IMG/VR virus record: IMGVR_UViG_2734482588_000007
From: a virus
Taxonomy: Duplodnaviria; Heunggongvirae; Uroviricota; Caudoviricetes
DNA length: 4,508 nt
Strand: one strand, 5' to 3'
The translations under genes and the position numbers were made by a program. Shown here in pieces: positions 1 through 4,508 of the stretch (position 1 is the first letter of the stretch; each line of letters begins with the position of its first letter). The notes beneath the pieces were generated by a model. The model had not been told where the DNA came from. It worked only from the letters and a program-made list of their open reading frames with translations, and did no database searches.

Positions 1-61
1 GAACCGTTCTGACAGCTTCGGCTTTGAACTCTTTAGAGTAACGTTGGGTTTTTCTGCTCAT
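1..61 (-). CDS. IS3-family transposase OrfA, N-terminal 20 codons only (gene continues beyond the left window edge)
   Basis: Reverse complement of 1-61 reads ATG AGC AGA AAA ACC CAA CGT TAC TCT AAA GAG TTC AAA GCC GAA GCT GTC AGA ACG GTT = MSRKTQRYSKEFKAEAVRTV. The Y-S-x-E-F-K-x-E-A-V motif is the typical N-terminus of IS3-family OrfA (HTH) proteins; from memory it resembles IS600-type OrfA. A strong SD (minus-strand AGAAGGAG, plus 69-76) sits about 8 nt upstream of the ATG (plus 59-61). Partial, so absent from the ORF track. Confidence 0.6.
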   Translation of the reverse strand, partial: MSRKTQRYSKEFKAEAVRTV

Positions 62-125
62 TATTAGCTCCTTCTGATGCCATTCTATTTCAGGAAGGAG
101 TGTCCGTTAAACTCAGGCTACCTCA
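1..125 (-). mobile_element. Partial IS3-family insertion sequence (left end: terminal repeat, orfA leader and orfA start); boundary approximate
   Basis: About 64 nt lie between the orfA ATG and a candidate terminus. The minus strand read from position 125 begins TGAGGTAGCCTGAGTTTAACGGACAC, which has the TGA-start, CTGA-TTT-containing style of IS3-family terminal inverted repeats. An alternative end is TGAGTTTAACGG from position 115. The other IS end is outside the window, so the inverted repeat and target duplication cannot be confirmed. Confidence 0.45.
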
Positions 126-802
126 GGTTATTCGCTTCTGGGCATGGGCGGATCAACAAATGATAGACGGTAATGCAGATTGTAACGCTCGCGGCGTTAC
201 AAAAAGTGCAATAGATCGCATCACTTTTATGTCTGGTTTTGCTGATGCGTTAATTCAGGTTGGATGGCTGGTCGAAAATGACGGAGGGCTTTCTCTACCT
301 AACTTTGAACGTCATAACGGAAAAAGCTCTAAAAAAAACGGGCGGTTACAAACGAGCGAGTAACAAAAATACGCGAACTGAAACGAAAAGGTAACGCTGC
401 CAGCGTTACACAAACGGATCAAAAAGCGTTACCAGAGGAAGAGGAAGAGGAAGATCTAAATACTGATCTCCCCCTCGCCAAAAACGAGCGTCTAAAAAAT
501 TCGAGCCGGAGGCTATTGAGCTGCCCGATTGGTTGCCGGAAACACTCTGGCATGAGTGGGTCCGGTTCAGACAGGCATTGCGAAAACCGATTCGAACGGA
601 GCAGGGCGCTAACGGGGCGATACGGGAACTGGAAAAATTCCGTCAGCAGGGTTTTACACCTGAGCAGGTGATTCGACACAGCATCGCCAATGAATACCAG
701 GGCCTGTTCGCGCCGAAAGGTGTTCGGCCTGAGACGTTGCTCCGACAGGTTAACACCGTCTCGTTGCCGGACAGTGCGATCCCGCCAGGCTTCAGGGGGT
801 AA
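126..802 (+). pseudogene. Phage replication initiator (replisome organiser) with DnaT-like C-terminal domain; 5'-truncated by the IS and interrupted by two -1 frameshifts
   Basis: Protein-like coding runs in frame 1 (126-339, VIRFWAWADQQMIDGNADCNARGV...HNGKSSKK), then frame 3 (333-~497, RAVTNERVTKIRELKRKG...EEEEEEDLNTDLPLAKNERLK), then frame 2 (~497-802, FEPEAIELPDWLPETLWHEW...). The C-terminus VNTVSLPDSAIPPGFRG* closely matches the E. coli DnaT C-terminus as I recall it (NTVSEPDSQIPPGFRG). Frame switches coincide with A8 (331-338) and A6 (494-499). The gene sits directly upstream of a DnaC-like gene, as in the host dnaT-dnaC arrangement. No valid start: the ORF-track GTG at 100 lies inside the IS end and abuts the SD-like sequence. 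Confidence 0.6.
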
Positions 803-808
803 CGGACC

Positions 809-1555
809 ATGAAAAATATTGCGACAGGCGGCGTTCTGGAACGCATCCGCCGACTGACCCCGCCACATGTAACCGCCCCATTCAGAACGGTAGCGGAGTG
901 GCGCGAGTGGCAACTTGCTGAAGGCCAGAAACGTAGCGAGGAGATCAACCGCCTGAATCGCCAGTTGCGGGTGGAAAAAATTCTGAATCGCTCAGGCATC
1001 CAGCCGTTGCACCGTAAATGCTCGTTTGCGAATTACCAGGTGCAGAACGACGGCCAGCGATACGCGTTAAGCCAGGCGAAATCCATCGCCGATGAACTGA
1101 TGACCGGGTGTACAAATTTTGCGTTCAGCGGAAAACCTGGTACCGGGAAGAATCACTTAGCGGCAGCTATCGGGAATCGCCTGCTGAAAGACGGTCAGAC
1201 AGTGATTGTGGTTACCGTGGCTGATGTTATGAGCGCCCTGCACGCCAGCTATGACGACGGGCAGTCAGGCGAAAAATTTTTGCGGGAGCTGTGCGAAGTG
1301 GATCTGCTGGTTCTTGATGAAATTGGCATTCAGCGCGAGACGAAAAACGAGCAGGTGGTGCTGCACCAGATTGTTGATCGCCGGACAGCGTCGATGCGCA
1401 GCGTGGGGATGCTGACAAACCTGAACTATGAGGTGATGAAAACATTGCTCGGCGAGCGGGTGATGGATCGCATGGTCATGAACGGCGGGCGCTGGGTGAA
1501 TTTTAACTGGGAGAGCTGGCGTCCGAATGTTAGCCATTCGAGGGTTGTTAAGTAG
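809..1555 (+). CDS. dnaC: DnaC-like replicative helicase loader (AAA+ ATPase), prophage paralog
   Basis: 248-aa ORF with SD AGGGGG (794-799) 9 nt upstream of ATG 809. Walker A GKPGTGKNHLAAAIG and Walker B DLLVLDEIG are present. Roughly 50% identical by eye across the full length to E. coli DnaC as recalled (MKN...P.H..P.F.T...NRSGI.PLH..CSF.NY.V...GQ..ALS.A...FSGKPGTGKNHLAAAI...TVAD.MSA...DLLV.DEIG.Q.E.K.E.V...QIVDRR....R..GMLTN.N...M..LLGERVMDRM.....WV.FNW.S.R), with the same length. Confidence 0.9.
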   Translation: MKNIATGGVLERIRRLTPPHVTAPFRTVAEWREWQLAEGQKRSEEINRLNRQLRVEKILNRSGIQPLHRKCSFANYQVQNDGQRYALSQAKSIADELMTGCTNFAFSGKPGTGKNHLAAAIGNRLLKDGQTVIVVTVADVMSALHASYDDGQSGEKFLRELCEVDLLVLDEIGIQRETKNEQVVLHQIVDRRTASMRSVGMLTNLNYEVMKTLLGERVMDRMVMNGGRWVNFNWESWRPNVSHSRVVK

Positions 1556-1569
1556 TTTCAGGAGGATTT

Positions 1570-1992
1570 ATGGCGAAACCTTTTACTCCCGAACAGCGGG
1601 AAGAACTGAAGACGCGAATTGTGGAACTCGTGCATCAGGACGGTCGGGTCACGATTCGGCAGTTGTCAGATGAAACAGGTATCAGTCGTGCGTCTGTCGG
1701 TCGCTTATGCATAGAACTGGTCGCAAGTGGTGATGTATATAATTCTGGCTACGGCTTATTCCCGTCTGAACAGGCTCGCAAGGACTGGCAAAGCGCCCGC
1801 AAAAAACTCTCGAGAGTAAAGGTGAGGAAACCGGTTGTTGTTGATCCGGACCTTATCTGGTCATTACCTGACGGAGAAATACGCCGCTACGACAGGCGCC
1901 TGAATATAATCTGTCGCGAGTGCCGGAAGAGCGAAGCTATGCAGCGTGTACTGGCTTTCTATCAGGGTAATTTTCAGGAGGCGATACTGTGA
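1570..1992 (+). CDS. Hypothetical small HTH protein, tentatively Ren-like
   Basis: 140-aa ORF with SD GGAGG (1561-1565) 4 nt before ATG 1570. Predicted helix-turn-helix segment RVTIRQLSDETGISRASVGRLCIELVASGDV. The C-terminal motif ECRKSEAMQRVLAFYQG resembles the lambda Ren C-terminus as I recall it (ECRQSAAMKRVLAVYG), and the gene sits immediately after the P/DnaC-like gene as ren does in lambda. The family assignment is from memory and unverified. Confidence 0.6.
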   Translation: MAKPFTPEQREELKTRIVELVHQDGRVTIRQLSDETGISRASVGRLCIELVASGDVYNSGYGLFPSEQARKDWQSARKKLSRVKVRKPVVVDPDLIWSLPDGEIRRYDRRLNIICRECRKSEAMQRVLAFYQGNFQEAIL

Positions 1993-2406
1993 ATGAAATT
2001 AGCTATCAGGCTTCAATTACCGCTGGCATTCGCATCAAAGGAGAGGAGCATGGAAATAAAACCAGAAGATGAGTTAAGCAATATCGTTTTATTTCCGGTA
2101 AAAGAGGATGACCCTCGTAATCAGGTTAATTTTCTTTATGAGCCATCGGAAAGACCATATTGCCATCACGCCTCTGTACGGGTTGACGAAAAAGAGCGTC
2201 AGGTCCGCTGTAAAATCTGCGGTGCGGTTGTGGAGCCGTTTGACTGGATGCTCTCTGTGGCAAAAAGAGAAACCAGACTGGCAGATGATGTAAGGCTATT
2301 GCGCCAGGAGGAACAGGAAAGGCGGAGAAATATAGAAAAGCTGATACAGATTGAGCGTAACGCGAAAGCGCGGATACGCAGGGCGACAAAATCCAGAACT
2401 GAATAA
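1993..2406 (+). CDS. Hypothetical Cys/His-rich (putative zinc-ribbon) protein with basic coiled-coil C-terminus; alternative start at 2050
   Basis: ATG 1993 overlaps the upstream stop (TGAATG at 1990-1995), suggesting translational coupling. An internal ATG at 2050 has a stronger SD (AAAGGAGAGGAG, 2037-2047). Contains C-H-H...C-x2-C (YCHHASVRVDEKERQVRCKICG) followed by a charged helical tail (LLRQEEQERRRNIEKLIQIERNAKARIRR). No family recognised. Confidence 0.5.
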   Translation: MKLAIRLQLPLAFASKERSMEIKPEDELSNIVLFPVKEDDPRNQVNFLYEPSERPYCHHASVRVDEKERQVRCKICGAVVEPFDWMLSVAKRETRLADDVRLLRQEEQERRRNIEKLIQIERNAKARIRRATKSRTE

Positions 2407-2511
2407 TTAAATTTAGCACTGTTAAAAATTTAATCCTTAACCGGAGGGATTTCTGCACCCTCAAATCATCAGGAGACCACCCGAAAGGGCGGGGAGCAGT
2501 CACACATCTGT

Positions 2512-2540
2512 TTCCGATAGCCCCGTTCTAATGCTACACT
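2512..2540 (+). promoter_or_regulatory. Candidate sigma70 promoter with extended -10 upstream of the queH-like gene
   Basis: -35-like TTCCGA (2512-2517), 14-nt spacer, then TG-n-TACACT (2532-2540), i.e. an extended -10 pattern. The predicted start site would lie only a few nt before ATG 2554, and there is no recognisable SD upstream of that ATG. Weak match, sequence-only. Confidence 0.2.
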
Positions 2541-2553
2541 CTTTGATATTTTT

Positions 2554-3240
2554 ATGACCCCAATAAACATATTTATGACAGTTGCTGATTTCAAACGGCC
2601 CAAATTGGAGCTCCCAAACGGGGCAAACAAACTACTACTGCACTCTTGCTGTGCTCCATGTTCCGGTGAGGTGATGGAGGCGCTTCAGGCCTCGGGAATC
2701 GACTACACCATCTTTTTCTACAACCCGAACATTCATCCTCAGAAAGAGTATTTAATTCGTAAGGATGAGAATATTCGCTTTGCTGAACAACACGGCGTGC
2801 CGTTTATTGATGCTGATTACGACACAGACAACTGGTTTGAACGAGCCAAAGGAATGGAATGGGAGCCCGAACGAGGGATCCGTTGCACCATGTGTTTTGA
2901 CATGCGTTTTGAGCGGACAGCGCTGTACGCCGCTGAAAATGGTTTCAGTGTGATCAGCAGTTCACTGGGCATTTCACGCTGGAAAAATATGCAGCAGGTT
3001 AACGACTGTGGGCGGCGAGCCGTCGCGCATTATCCGGGCATGGTGTACTGGGATTATAACTGGCGCAAGCAGGGCGGCTCGTCCCGTATGATTGAAATCA
3101 GCAAGCGCGAAAAATTCTATCAGCAGGAATATTGTGGCTGTGTGTATTCTCTGCGCGATACCAATCTACACCGCAAATCTCAGGGACGCCCTCTTATCAA
3201 AATTGGTCAACTCCACTACGGTAAAGAAGAGAAGGAGTGA
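2554..3240 (+). CDS. queH: QueH-like epoxyqueuosine reductase (DUF208 family)
   Basis: 228-aa ORF carrying the N-terminal motif [12 protein letters not shown] (nt ~2634-2667) and a downstream YCGC motif (nt ~3129-3140). Size and cysteine pattern match the QueH/DUF208 family as I know it. Start could alternatively be ATG 2575; neither start has a clear SD. Confidence 0.8.
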
Positions 3241-3266
3241 TTTTATGGGGCACCTTTCTGATTGAT

Positions 3267-3582
3267 NNNNNNNNNNNNNNNNNNNNNNNNNNNNNNNNNN
3301 NNNNNNNNNNNNNNNNNNNNNNNNNNNNNNNNNNNNNNNNNNNNNNNNNNNNNNNNNNNNNNNNNNNNNNNNNNNNNNNNNNNNNNNNNNNNNNNNNNNN
3401 NNNNNNNNNNNNNNNNNNNNNNNNNNNNNNNNNNNNNNNNNNNNNNNNNNNNNNNNNNNNNNNNNNNNNNNNNNNNNNNNNNNNNNNNNNNNNNNNNNNN
3501 NNNNNNNNNNNNNNNNNNNNNNNNNNNNNNNNNNNNNNNNNNNNNNNNNNNNNNNNNNNNNNNNNNNNNNNNNNNNNNNNNN
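3267..3582. other. Run of 316 N (assembly gap or masked sequence); content unknown
   Basis: Uninterrupted n characters from 3267 to 3582. Every ORF-track entry spanning this region (poly-X translations) is an artefact. Confidence 0.99.
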
Positions 3583-3606
3583 CATCCTCAACGCACCCGC
3601 ACTTAA

Positions 3607-3649
3607 CCCGCCCATCGCTGTGATCTCTCAGCGTTTCGGCGGGTTTTTT
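3607..3649 (+). terminator. Rho-independent terminator candidate (plus-strand orientation)
   Basis: Two-part GC-rich stem: CCCGCC (3607-3612) pairs with GGCGGG (3638-3643), and CGCTG (3616-3620) pairs with CAGCG (3629-3633), around an 8-nt loop. It is followed by TTTTTT (3644-3649) and further T-rich sequence. No T-run follows on the minus strand. Confidence 0.5.
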
Positions 3650-3669
3650 GTTGTTTATTTCCGGTGAAT

Positions 3670-3697
3670 TTGATTCGCGCACCTTCGCAGATAGAAT
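3670..3697 (+). promoter_or_regulatory. Candidate sigma70 promoter
   Basis: TTGATT (3670-3675), 16-nt spacer, TAGAAT (3692-3697). It lies just downstream of the terminator and about 80 nt upstream of ATG 3779. Confidence 0.3.
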
Positions 3698-3778
3698 CGA
3701 CTCACTTAAGTAGCGCGCAGGGAGAAGAGGGATGGACCCCGAACAGGGGAGAGCTATTTATCTGGAAGGATTCTGAAG

Positions 3779-4066
3779 ATGAAAATCGAAGAATTGCGTG
3801 AAATTTTTAGTGAAAATGGCCTCTATGCTGTGCGCGTTGAGAATGGAGCGATTGTCAGCCATTGCCGCATTAGATGTTTGCAATCTCAACAAAGGAAGAG
3901 CGGTGCTGTGTTATTTTATTTTTGTAATGGACTTCTGACGGACGGTTTTATTTTGCGTGAGGACGAATTTGTCACATCATTACGGGTTTTGAAAGAGATT
4001 GGTTTTAAGGCTGGTTTTCTGCTTTTGCTGAAGAATAAACTCATCTACAATCTTGAGCAGGATTGA
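3779..4066 (+). CDS. Hypothetical small protein (95 aa)
   Basis: ORF with SD-like GGAAGGA (3764-3770) 8 nt before ATG 3779. The N-terminal half (MKIEELREIFSENGLYAVRVENGAIVSHCRI) looks protein-like; the C-terminal half is AT-rich and less convincing. No family recognised. Confidence 0.35.
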   Translation: MKIEELREIFSENGLYAVRVENGAIVSHCRIRCLQSQQRKSGAVLFYFCNGLLTDGFILREDEFVTSLRVLKEIGFKAGFLLLLKNKLIYNLEQD

Positions 4067-4104
4067 ACTCCTGCTGTGTAACACCGTGCCACCGGAGAAA
4101 GCCG

Positions 4105-4458
4105 ATGGCACATATACAACTGGTCAAACAAACCTCTTCCGGATTACTTCTCCCGGCGACGCCGGAGAGTTGCGATTTTCTGCATCAAATCAAAATAGGT
4201 GAGTGGATACACGCAGACTTTAAGCGTGTGTGTAACTACGCATTCCACAAGCGTTTTTTCAAACTCCTGCAACTGGGTTTCGATTACTGGACTCCGGTCG
4301 GTGGGGCGATCACGCCTCGCGAACGAAAACTGGTGTCCGGTTTCGTTGATTACCTGTGTGAATCAGTAGGCCGGGAACATACGCCAGCTCTGAGCGAAGC
4401 CGCAGAGCAATTGAGGTGTACTGGCAATAGCGGACACTACCATTTGTTCTTTTTTTAA
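4105..4458 (+). CDS. Hypothetical phage-associated protein (117 aa from ATG 4105); C-terminus possibly truncated at a T7 run
   Basis: ATG 4105 is preceded by SD GGAGA (4094-4098) with 6 nt spacing. The ORF-track TTG start at 4063 is less likely. Protein-like composition (MAHIQLVKQTSSGLLLPATPESCDFLHQIKIGEWIHADFKRV...). The ORF ends FFF* inside TTTTTTT (4450-4456). No family confidently recognised. Confidence 0.45.
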   Translation: MAHIQLVKQTSSGLLLPATPESCDFLHQIKIGEWIHADFKRVCNYAFHKRFFKLLQLGFDYWTPVGGAITPRERKLVSGFVDYLCESVGREHTPALSEAAEQLRCTGNSGHYHLFFF

Positions 4459-4508
4459 GCAGCCATCTGATGATATTTTTCCCTGAAGGCTGCCGGGGAG
4501 ATATTCCC

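What the first reader, a model, noticed from the sequence alone, without database searches (positions are those of the whole stretch)
1..125. IS3-family insertion sequence abutting and truncating the phage replication-initiator gene
Seen in sequence: a minus-strand orfA start (MSRKTQRYSKEFKAEAVRTV) with a strong SD, and a terminal-repeat-like sequence (TGAGGTAGCCTGAGTTTAACGGACAC on the minus strand) ending near 125. The replication-gene reading frame continues in-frame straight out of the IS end (…VIRFWAWADQQ…) with no plausible start codon. Inference: the IS inserted into, or deleted the 5' part of, the replication initiator, consistent with a defective (cryptic) prophage.
Basis: partly seen in the sequence, partly recalled or inferred. 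Interest (0 to 1): 0.5.

Follow-up and report, generated by a model that had tools for sequence, protein, structure and literature searches.

The report
IS600 inserted in dead prophage replication gene
The left edge of the window is the end of IS600, a well-known mobile element of Shigella, which has jumped into the replication-initiator gene of an already decaying Shigella sonnei prophage; this is ordinary and already present in annotated public genomes.

Summary
Window 1-125 is the left (IRL) end of IS600, an IS3-family element. It is 125/125 identical to annotated IS600 copies. The element lies in minus orientation and its last base is window 125.

The window is 100% identical to Shigella sonnei assemblies over its unmasked parts (1-3266 and 3583-4508). 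In six of eight retrieved loci the complete element is 1263-1264 bp. It is flanked there by a 3-bp target duplication (GGT), and the first 36 codons of the interrupted gene survive on the far side. This was therefore a simple transposition into codon 36, not a deletion of the 5' part. One assembly (L005) has since lost the 5' side.

The interrupted gene is a 262-aa lambdoid replication initiator. It matches PHROG 2509, has a YdaU-type C-terminal domain, and lies just upstream of an intact DnaC-like ydaV. Its remnant carries two further lesions: a +2 frameshift (A6 to A8, 331-338) and a 10-bp deletion (about 468-476).

A second IS600 in the same orientation (4412-4508) truncates a DUF1367 gene. 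It has no target duplication and is followed by an integrase fragment. The prophage is a rearranged remnant riddled with insertion sequences.

Nothing here is novel. IS600 expansion and gene loss through insertion sequences in Shigella are well documented.

The parts
1..125 (-). Left (IRL) end of IS600: the terminal inverted repeat, the 5' leader, and the first 20 codons of orfA. The element continues leftwards off the window.
   Evidence: 125/125 identity to annotated 'IS3-like element IS600 family transposase' loci. 100% identical to L004 9902-10026, where the full element is 1264 bp.
99..125 (-). IRL of IS600 (TGAGGTAGCCTGAGTTTAACGGACACT). It starts with the IS3-family TG dinucleotide at window 125.
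   Evidence: Alignment of the two IS ends: 19 of the first 27 positions match the IRR.
82..110 (-). Sigma-70-like promoter match (TTAACG-17-TAGAAT) reading inwards towards orfA. This is a candidate for the element's own weak promoter.
   Evidence: Consensus scan only. No outward, plus-strand promoter match was found in 1-900.
2..61 (-). orfA start, MSRKTQRYSKEFKAEAVRTV. The Shine-Dalgarno AAGGAG is at 73..68, 6 nt from the ATG.
   Evidence: The full 100-aa OrfA in L004 hits Pfam HTH_Tnp_1 at 1.5e-20.
126..128 (.). GGT, the right-hand copy of the 3-bp target-site duplication.
   Evidence: L004 and five other S. sonnei loci read ...GGGAAGGT|IS600|GGTTATTC. The uninterrupted gene reads GGGAAGGTTATTC.
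126..802 (+). 3' part (codons 36-262) of a lambdoid replication-initiator gene, now a pseudogene. It is O-like, with a YdaU-type C-terminal domain. It reads in frame 1 up to 338, frame 3 from 339 to about 468, and frame 2 from about 476 to the stop at 800-802.
   Evidence: Alignment to the intact 789-nt genes of E. coli FDAARGOS_944 and COL60J. PHROG 2509 'replication initiation protein': 1.2e-89 for the intact protein and 1.7e-36 for the window fragment, which matches profile positions 36-103. C-terminal 124 aa are 81% identical to a 285-aa DUF1376-bearing YdaU-type protein encoded next to Rac-type genes in L009.
331..338 (+). A8 run where intact genes have A6. This +2 frameshift creates the stop at 361-363.
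   Evidence: The resulting 87-aa hybrid ORF was seen with exactly this sequence on 492 contigs, so it is not a sequencing error.
468..476 (+). Site of a 10-bp deletion. One copy of the direct repeat TCCCCCT(AAA)TCCCCCT has been lost.
   Evidence: Present in all S. sonnei loci aligned.
182..200 (.). Perfect palindrome GTAACGC-N5-GCGTTAC inside the initiator gene. Candidate initiator-binding or origin site.
   Evidence: 2 in the window against 0.03 expected. A third copy lies 14 bp upstream of the gene's start, on the other side of the IS (L004 8624-8642). The function is inferred.
391..409 (.). Second GTAACGC-N5-GCGTTAC palindrome.
809..1555 (+). Intact ydaV, a DnaC-like helicase loader of 248 aa. 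It is the partner gene of the interrupted initiator.
   Evidence: NCBIfam PRK12377 at 8e-154, Pfam IstB_IS21, and PHROG 50 'DnaC-like helicase loader'. RefSeq annotates it as ydaV.
4105..4411 (+). 5' 102 codons of a DUF1367 gene, cut off by the second IS600.
   Evidence: Pfam DUF1367 at 9.9e-47, matching profile positions 1-101 of 198. Alignment to L001 stops at window 4411.
4412..4508 (-). Right (IRR) end of a second IS600 copy, in the same orientation as the first. It includes the 3' end of orfB (...GNISPAAFREKYHQMAA*).
   Evidence: In L004 this copy (14407-15670) differs from the left copy at 2 of 1264 nt. Its flanks are AAT and GTT, so there is no target duplication. An integrase fragment follows it.

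Best explanation
Window 1-125 is the IRL end of a copy of IS600. IS600 is an IS3-family element of 1264 bp. It carries orfA and orfB and makes a DDE transposase through a -1 programmed frameshift. This copy transposed into codon 36 of the replication-initiator gene of a lambdoid, Rac-like prophage in the Shigella sonnei lineage, duplicating the 3-bp target GGT. The insertion separates two parts of the gene. On one side are the promoter, the start codon, the first 36 codons and one of three GTAACGC-N5-GCGTTAC palindromes. On the other side are the remaining 226 codons and the other two palindromes. No initiator can be made, and the prophage cannot start its own replication. The gene remnant has since decayed further, or had decayed already, through a +2 frameshift and a 10-bp deletion. 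A second IS600 4.3 kb downstream marks a rearrangement of the prophage. Shown here: the identity of the IS, its exact end, the target duplication, the insertion point, the extra lesions and the second IS. Inferred: that the interrupted protein initiates replication (from family, position and domain sharing); that the palindromes are its binding sites; and the transposition chemistry (from what is established for the IS3 family).
For: IS identity and boundary. Uninterrupted homologues align only from window 125/126. The window is 100% identical to S. sonnei loci L004 and L005. The species comes from source names of all three junction-spanning ORFs. Full IS of 1264 bp (1263 in four assemblies), with GGT on both sides in 6 of 8 loci. 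orfA is open in one frame and orfB in the -1 frame, with an A7G slippery run at IS positions 316-323. Pfam gives HTH_Tnp_1 and rve; NCBIfam transpos_IS3 scores 334 bits against a cutoff of 160. Interrupted gene: PHROG 2509 replication initiation protein at 1.2e-89. Phage records annotate the homologue as 'DNA replication protein O' next to a DnaC-like gene. One RefSeq record names it 'phage replication initiator YdaU family protein'. Extra lesions. The junction is absent from 5426 complete E. coli genomes (0 places cover >=80% of an 80-nt junction probe). IS600 is one of five insertion sequences expanded in all Shigella species: PMC7373316.
Against: The window ends inside the IS. The target duplication and the retained 5' fragment are therefore seen only in other S. 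sonnei assemblies that are identical to the window, not in the window's own genome. One such assembly (L005) lacks the 5' side. The intact initiator has no Pfam or NCBIfam family hit: DUF1376, the N-terminal domain of K-12 YdaU, is not matched. Its function rests on PHROG annotation, gene order and the shared C-terminal domain, not on experiment. The order of the three lesions is unknown.
Confidence: 0.95

Rival explanations
1. In the particular genome the window comes from, the 5' part of the initiator gene is gone. After the insertion, an IS600-associated adjacent deletion removed the DNA next to the IRR end: the immunity region, ydaT and the ydaU 5' fragment.
For: L005 (GCA_965230885.1) is 100% identical to the window. 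Its IS600 IRR abuts DNA that corresponds to L004 position 6248, inside another IS3-family element. About 2.5 kb (L004 6249-8762) is missing. The 41-aa 5' fragment was seen on fewer contigs (344) than the 87-aa 3' hybrid ORF (492).
Against: Six of the seven loci with a readable left junction keep the 5' fragment and the GGT duplication. The contig-count difference may only reflect gene calling on short contigs. Even if true, the deletion is secondary to the same insertion, because the IRL junction is identical.
Confidence: 0.12
2. The IS-to-gene junction is an assembly artefact. The contig ends in collapsed repeat sequence that was wrongly joined to the prophage DNA.
For: Both window ends stop about 100-125 nt inside IS600, as expected for a short-read contig that breaks at a repeat. 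Most contigs carrying the 87-aa ORF are 2-5 kb (397 of 481 blocks). L009 has an N exactly at its left IS junction.
Against: The same junction, base for base, sits inside multi-megabase contigs of several independent assemblies, L004-L008, L010 and L011, with contigs up to 4.86 Mb. The matching target duplication is not something misassembly would create.
Confidence: 0.02
3. The hybrid ORF 100-363 is a functional new gene rather than debris. It has a GTG start inside the IRL, 9 IS-derived codons and 69 initiator codons, and ends 9 codons past the +2 frameshift.
For: The ORF is open and is called as a gene in many annotations as 'putative bacteriophage protein'.
Against: No plus-strand promoter-like site was found in 1-900, and no obvious ribosome-binding site precedes the GTG. 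The ORF ends because of a frameshift, and the rest of the gene is broken again. It has no family hit of its own beyond the initiator fragment.
Confidence: 0.03

Closest known systems
IS600 (IS3 family; first described from Shigella sonnei)
   Same: The left S. sonnei copy (L004) differs from an annotated E. coli IS600 at 3 of 1264 nt. It has TG...CA ends, imperfect terminal repeats, orfA and orfB in the 0 and -1 frames with an A7G run, and a 3-bp target duplication. From memory, not tested: ISfinder lists IS600 as 1264 bp with a 3-bp direct repeat.
   Different: Nothing of substance. Only 125 nt of one copy and 97 nt of another lie in the window. The ISfinder reference sequence itself could not be compared.
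Rac prophage ydaU-ydaV replication module of E. coli K-12
   Same: Same gene order: cro, ydaT, initiator, then the DnaC-like ydaV. ydaV is annotated as such. The C-terminal 124 aa of the initiator are 81% identical to a 285-aa DUF1376-bearing YdaU-type protein encoded next to Rac-type genes in L009.
   Different: The N-terminal ~135 aa, where the IS sits, are unrelated to that protein's DUF1376 domain; there is no Pfam hit. It is a mosaic initiator with a different presumed DNA-binding domain. The prophage lies next to modABC, not at the Rac site.
Phage lambda O/P with the origin inside gene O
   Same: An initiator gene directly upstream of a helicase-loader gene, with repeated binding-site-like sequences inside and just upstream of the initiator gene. 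Phage records annotate the homologue as 'DNA replication protein O'.
   Different: The loader is DnaC-like (AAA+), not lambda P. The repeats are three dispersed 19-bp palindromes about 190-210 bp apart, not four tandem iterons. Their role is untested.
IS-driven pseudogenisation and genome decay in Shigella (Hawkey et al. 2020, PMC7373316)
   Same: IS600 is one of the five insertion sequences expanded in every Shigella species. IS insertions create many pseudogenes and break short-read assemblies. This locus is one instance.
   Different: That paper's main text does not mention prophages: 0 occurrences of 'prophage'. This particular site was not looked up in its tables.

Membership tests
IS3 family / IS600 | Near-identity of nucleotide sequence to the named element | tested here: met
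   Window 1-125 is 100% identical to loci annotated 'IS3-like element IS600 family transposase'. The full copy in L004 differs at 3 of 1264 nt from the E2865 copy. The ISfinder reference was not available.
IS3 family / IS600 | Terminal inverted repeats ending 5'-TG...CA-3' | tested here: met
   TGAGGTAG... at window 125 (minus strand) and TGAGGTGT... at window 4412. 19 of the first 27 positions match between IRL and IRR.
IS3 family / IS600 | Two consecutive, overlapping ORFs in frames 0 and -1: orfA with an HTH and orfB with a DDE/rve domain, plus a slippery A-run for programmed frameshifting | tested here: met
   Seen in the full copy outside the window (L004). OrfA is 100 aa and hits HTH_Tnp_1 at 1.5e-20. 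OrfB hits rve at 8.7e-26. NCBIfam transpos_IS3 scores 334 bits against a cutoff of 160. A7G lies at IS positions 316-323. Only the first 20 codons of orfA are in the window. Frameshifting itself was not tested.
IS3 family / IS600 | 3-bp target-site duplication | tested here: met
   GGT on both sides in L004, L006, L007, L008, L010 and L011. The E2865 copy has GCG on both sides. It cannot be seen in the window's own contig.
Lambdoid replication initiator (lambda O-like / YdaU family) | Sequence membership in a curated initiator family | tested here: inconclusive
   PHROG 2509 'replication initiation protein' matches full length at 1.2e-89, and PHROG 678 'replication initiation O-like' at 7e-26. 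There is no Pfam hit, so DUF1376 is not matched, and no NCBIfam hit above cutoff. One RefSeq record uses the name 'YdaU family'; most say 'hypothetical protein'.
Lambdoid replication initiator (lambda O-like / YdaU family) | Position between the cro/immunity genes and a helicase-loader gene | tested here: met
   The order cro, ydaT, the initiator, then ydaV is seen in L001, L002 and L004.
Lambdoid replication initiator (lambda O-like / YdaU family) | Origin or iteron sequences bound by the protein, and replication activity | not testable with these tools
   Three GTAACGC-N5-GCGTTAC palindromes are confined to this gene and its leader. They are candidates only.

The most novel reading that the evidence does not exclude
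The two IS600 copies in direct orientation, together with the 4.3-kb prophage segment between them, might behave as a unit. The segment carries ydaV, a DUF977 gene, queH, hokD, rem and the DUF1367 fragment. The unit could be a composite-transposon-like module, or a segment kept from IS600-IS600 recombinational loss by the hok toxin-antitoxin locus. That would explain why it is identical across hundreds of S. sonnei assemblies.
Probability: 0.05. Interest if true: 0.3.

Novelty: already known. Interest (0 to 1): 0.08.

Why it matters
It matters little beyond bookkeeping. It is one of the several hundred IS insertions that mark Shigella genome decay. The exact junction (…CCTCA|GGTTATTCGC) is absent from 5426 complete E. 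coli genomes and present in hundreds of S. sonnei contigs. It could therefore serve as a lineage marker, and it explains why short-read assemblies yield a ~4.5-kb contig here. It also shows that the replication module of this prophage remnant is dead three times over.

Tried and rejected
- **Source contig:** a scan of genome contigs for the 35-nt junction found nothing. That collection holds one genome per species, and Shigella is probably merged with E. coli there.
- **Organism by accession:** a literature search for the assembly accessions gave nothing relevant. The species was obtained instead from protein source names.
- **Family of the intact initiator:** Pfam gave no family. NCBIfam gave only a weak, sub-threshold match of the last 19 residues to the C-terminus of DnaT (E 0.002-0.006). 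I do not build on it.
- **RNA families:** Rfam at gathering threshold found no RNA family in the window.
- **Composite transposon on plasmids:** no plasmid record holds more than 33% of window 126-3266 (the unmasked first 3.1 kb), so this gives no support for the idea.
- **Outward promoter:** no promoter-like site reads from the IS end into the gene remnant.
- **L009 as a second context:** the same IS junction appears preceded by a Rac-type ydaU-ydaV, but an N sits exactly at its left junction. I treat that join as unreliable.

Full report
**1. Observation**

The minus strand of window 61..2 translates to MSRKTQRYSKEFKAEAVRTV. AAGGAG (73..68) lies 6 nt upstream of the ATG (sequence). The string TGAGGTAGCCTGAGTTTAACGGACAC is on the minus strand and begins exactly at window 125.

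Window 1-125 is 100% identical to thousands of E. coli loci. 3209 records match at >=99% identity. Where they carry a specific name, RefSeq calls them 'IS3-like element IS600 family transposase'. An alignment with a complete annotated IS600 (E. coli E2865, flanked by a GCG/GCG duplication) puts the element's last base at window 125.

**2.

Window 4412-4508 is the opposite (IRR) end of a second IS600 in the same orientation. It includes the orfB C-terminus...GNISPAAFREKYHQMAA*.

The window is therefore 4286 bp of prophage DNA (126-4411) bracketed by about 100-125 nt of IS600 at each end. A short-read contig that breaks at a repeat looks like this. Most public contigs carrying the junction ORF are 2-5 kb (397 of 481 blocks).

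**3. Origin**

An exact-sequence look-up of the ORF that spans the junction (window 100-363, 87 aa) found it in 481 blocks of the collection; eight loci were retrieved for study, several on multi-megabase contigs. The window is 100% identical to L004 and L005 over 1-3266 and 3583-4508.

Source names for this ORF, and for the two other junction-spanning ORFs, all say Shigella sonnei. Examples are FORC11_0721 and strain 4822-66.

An 80-nt probe across the junction is covered at >=80% in none of 5426 complete E. coli genomes.

**4. The full element and the insertion event**

In L004 the IS occupies 8763-10026, which is 1264 bp.
- orfA (100 aa) hits Pfam HTH_Tnp_1 at 1.5e-20.
- orfB, in the -1 frame, hits rve at 8.7e-26. 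NCBIfam transpos_IS3 scores 334 bits against a cutoff of 160.
- An A7G run at IS positions 316-323 lies in the overlap of the two frames.
- Both ORFs are open.
- The copy differs at 2 nt from the downstream copy and at 3 nt from the E. coli E2865 copy.

The flanks read ...GCATTAGGGAAGGT|IS600|GGTTATTCGC.... Uninterrupted genes read GCATTAGGGAAGGTTATTCGC. This is a simple transposition with a 3-bp GGT duplication.

The 5' 36 codons, with their start codon, remain on the far side of the IS. Gene callers annotate them as a 41-aa ORF that ends in the IRR.

Six of the eight retrieved loci have this configuration. The other two differ:
- L005 has the same right junction, but its IRR abuts DNA equivalent to L004 position 6248, inside another IS3-family element. 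About 2.5 kb has been lost secondarily, including the immunity region, ydaT and the 5' fragment.
- L009 has an N at its left junction and is not trustworthy.

The window stops inside the IS. Which state its own genome has cannot be read from it.

**5. The interrupted gene**

The closest uninterrupted relatives are E. coli FDAARGOS_944 (99.1% identity, query 125-1600; 99.5% over window 125-3266) and COL60J (97.3% identity over query 125-1530). Both carry a 789-nt, 262-aa gene between cro/ydaT and the DnaC-like ydaV.

Evidence on its family:
- PHROG 2509 'replication initiation protein' matches it end to end at 1.2e-89.
- The window's first fragment matches profile positions 36-103 of that family. 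The last fragment matches the 'primosomal protein' and 'O-like' families.
- Phage records annotate the homologue as 'DNA replication protein O'.
- One RefSeq record calls it 'phage replication initiator YdaU family protein'.
- It has no Pfam hit.
- Only its C-terminal 124 aa resemble a 285-aa DUF1376-bearing YdaU-type protein encoded next to Rac-type genes in L009, at 81% identity. The N-terminal domain, where the IS sits, is different.

It is thus a mosaic initiator. Its function is inferred from family annotation, gene order and domain sharing, not demonstrated.

**6. Further decay**

The remnant carries two more lesions relative to intact genes.
- A8 replaces A6 at 331-338. This +2 shift causes the stop at 361-363.
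- One copy of a TCCCCCT(AAA) direct repeat has been lost at about 468-476, a 10-bp deletion.

The reading frame therefore moves from frame 1 to frame 3 to frame 2 and is never restored. Both lesions are in every S. sonnei locus aligned.

ydaV (809-1555, 248 aa) is intact.

**7. Candidate origin or operator sites**

GTAACGC-N5-GCGTTAC occurs as a perfect palindrome at 182-200 and 391-409. That is 2 found against 0.03 expected. A third copy lies 14 bp upstream of the gene's start codon, at L004 8624-8642, and there are no others in 20 kb.

By analogy with lambda, whose origin lies inside gene O (established knowledge), these are plausible initiator-binding sites. The IS separates the first from the other two. 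This is inference only.

**8. The prophage as a whole**

The second IS600 cuts a DUF1367 gene after codon 102; Pfam matches profile positions 1-101 of 198. Its flanks, AAT and GTT, are not a duplication. It is followed by an integrase fragment on the 'wrong' strand and then by the chromosomal modABC genes.

To the left in L004 lie lysis genes on the opposite strand, interrupted by another IS3-family element. An IS110-family element, a further IS3-family element and a partial IS600 are also there. This is a scrambled, IS-riddled prophage remnant.

**9. Mechanism**

IS3-family elements transpose by a copy-out/paste-in route through a circular intermediate, using an OrfAB DDE transposase made by -1 frameshifting (established knowledge, not tested here). 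The 3-bp duplication and intact ends seen here are the expected footprint.

The consequence is loss of the initiator, so the prophage cannot replicate autonomously. No outward promoter-like site was found that could express the remnant. The only match in 1-900 reads inwards towards orfA.

**10. Comparison and novelty**

IS600 is one of the five insertion sequences expanded in all Shigella species, and IS insertions account for much of their pseudogene load (PMC7373316). This locus is one such insertion. It is present and annotated in public S. sonnei genomes. It is already known in kind and in instance, and interest is low.

The least ordinary reading left open is that the IS600-bounded 4.3-kb segment acts as a mobile or hok-stabilised unit. 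It gets no support from plasmid searches.

Noticed in passing
window 3267-3582: A run of 316 N replaces 410 nt of the identical S. sonnei sequence (L004 13168-13577). In related loci that stretch holds the type I toxin gene hokD (Pfam HOK_GEF) and presumably its antisense RNA. The mask does not preserve length.
   Followed up: partly
window 435-452: (GAGGAA)n repeat inside the initiator pseudogene. It has 3 units here, in L004 and in the intact E. coli gene, but 6 units in L006 and 7 in L011, both S. sonnei assemblies. It is a variable tandem repeat, or a long-read assembly difference.
   Followed up: partly
window 4412-4508; L004 14407-15670: The second IS600 copy has the same orientation as the first and no target duplication (AAT versus GTT). 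A DUF1367 5' fragment lies on one side and an integrase fragment plus modABC on the other. This indicates an IS-associated deletion or inversion.
   Followed up: partly
L005 8723-8762 versus L004 6249-8762: One S. sonnei assembly lacks about 2.5 kb next to the IRR end of the IS600 copy: the partial IS600, the DUF1391 gene, the repressor, cro, ydaT and the ydaU 5' fragment. The IS there abuts the interior of another IS3-family element. It looks like an IS-adjacent deletion.
   Followed up: partly
L009 7176-10026: In assembly GCA_001248565.1 the same IS600/initiator junction is preceded by a Rac-type ydaU (285 aa, DUF1376) and a ydaV truncated at 241 aa. An N sits exactly at the left IS junction, so it is probably a scaffolding join across the repeat.
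   Followed up: partly
window 2554-3240: A prophage-borne epoxyqueuosine reductase QueH gene (Pfam QueH; RefSeq annotation in related loci) sits between the replication genes and hokD. Similar queH genes occur on E. coli, Salmonella and Klebsiella plasmids.
   Followed up: no
window 746-802 (last 19 codons of the initiator): Weak, sub-threshold similarity of the initiator's C-terminal 19 residues to the C-terminus of primosomal protein DnaT (NCBIfam PRK02854, E 0.002-0.006). It is curious because dnaT lies upstream of dnaC, just as this gene lies upstream of the DnaC-like ydaV.
   Followed up: no
window 182-200, 391-409; L004 8624-8642: Three perfect 19-bp palindromes GTAACGC-N5-GCGTTAC are confined to the initiator gene and its leader. 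They are candidate origin or operator sites, now split by the IS.
   Followed up: partly
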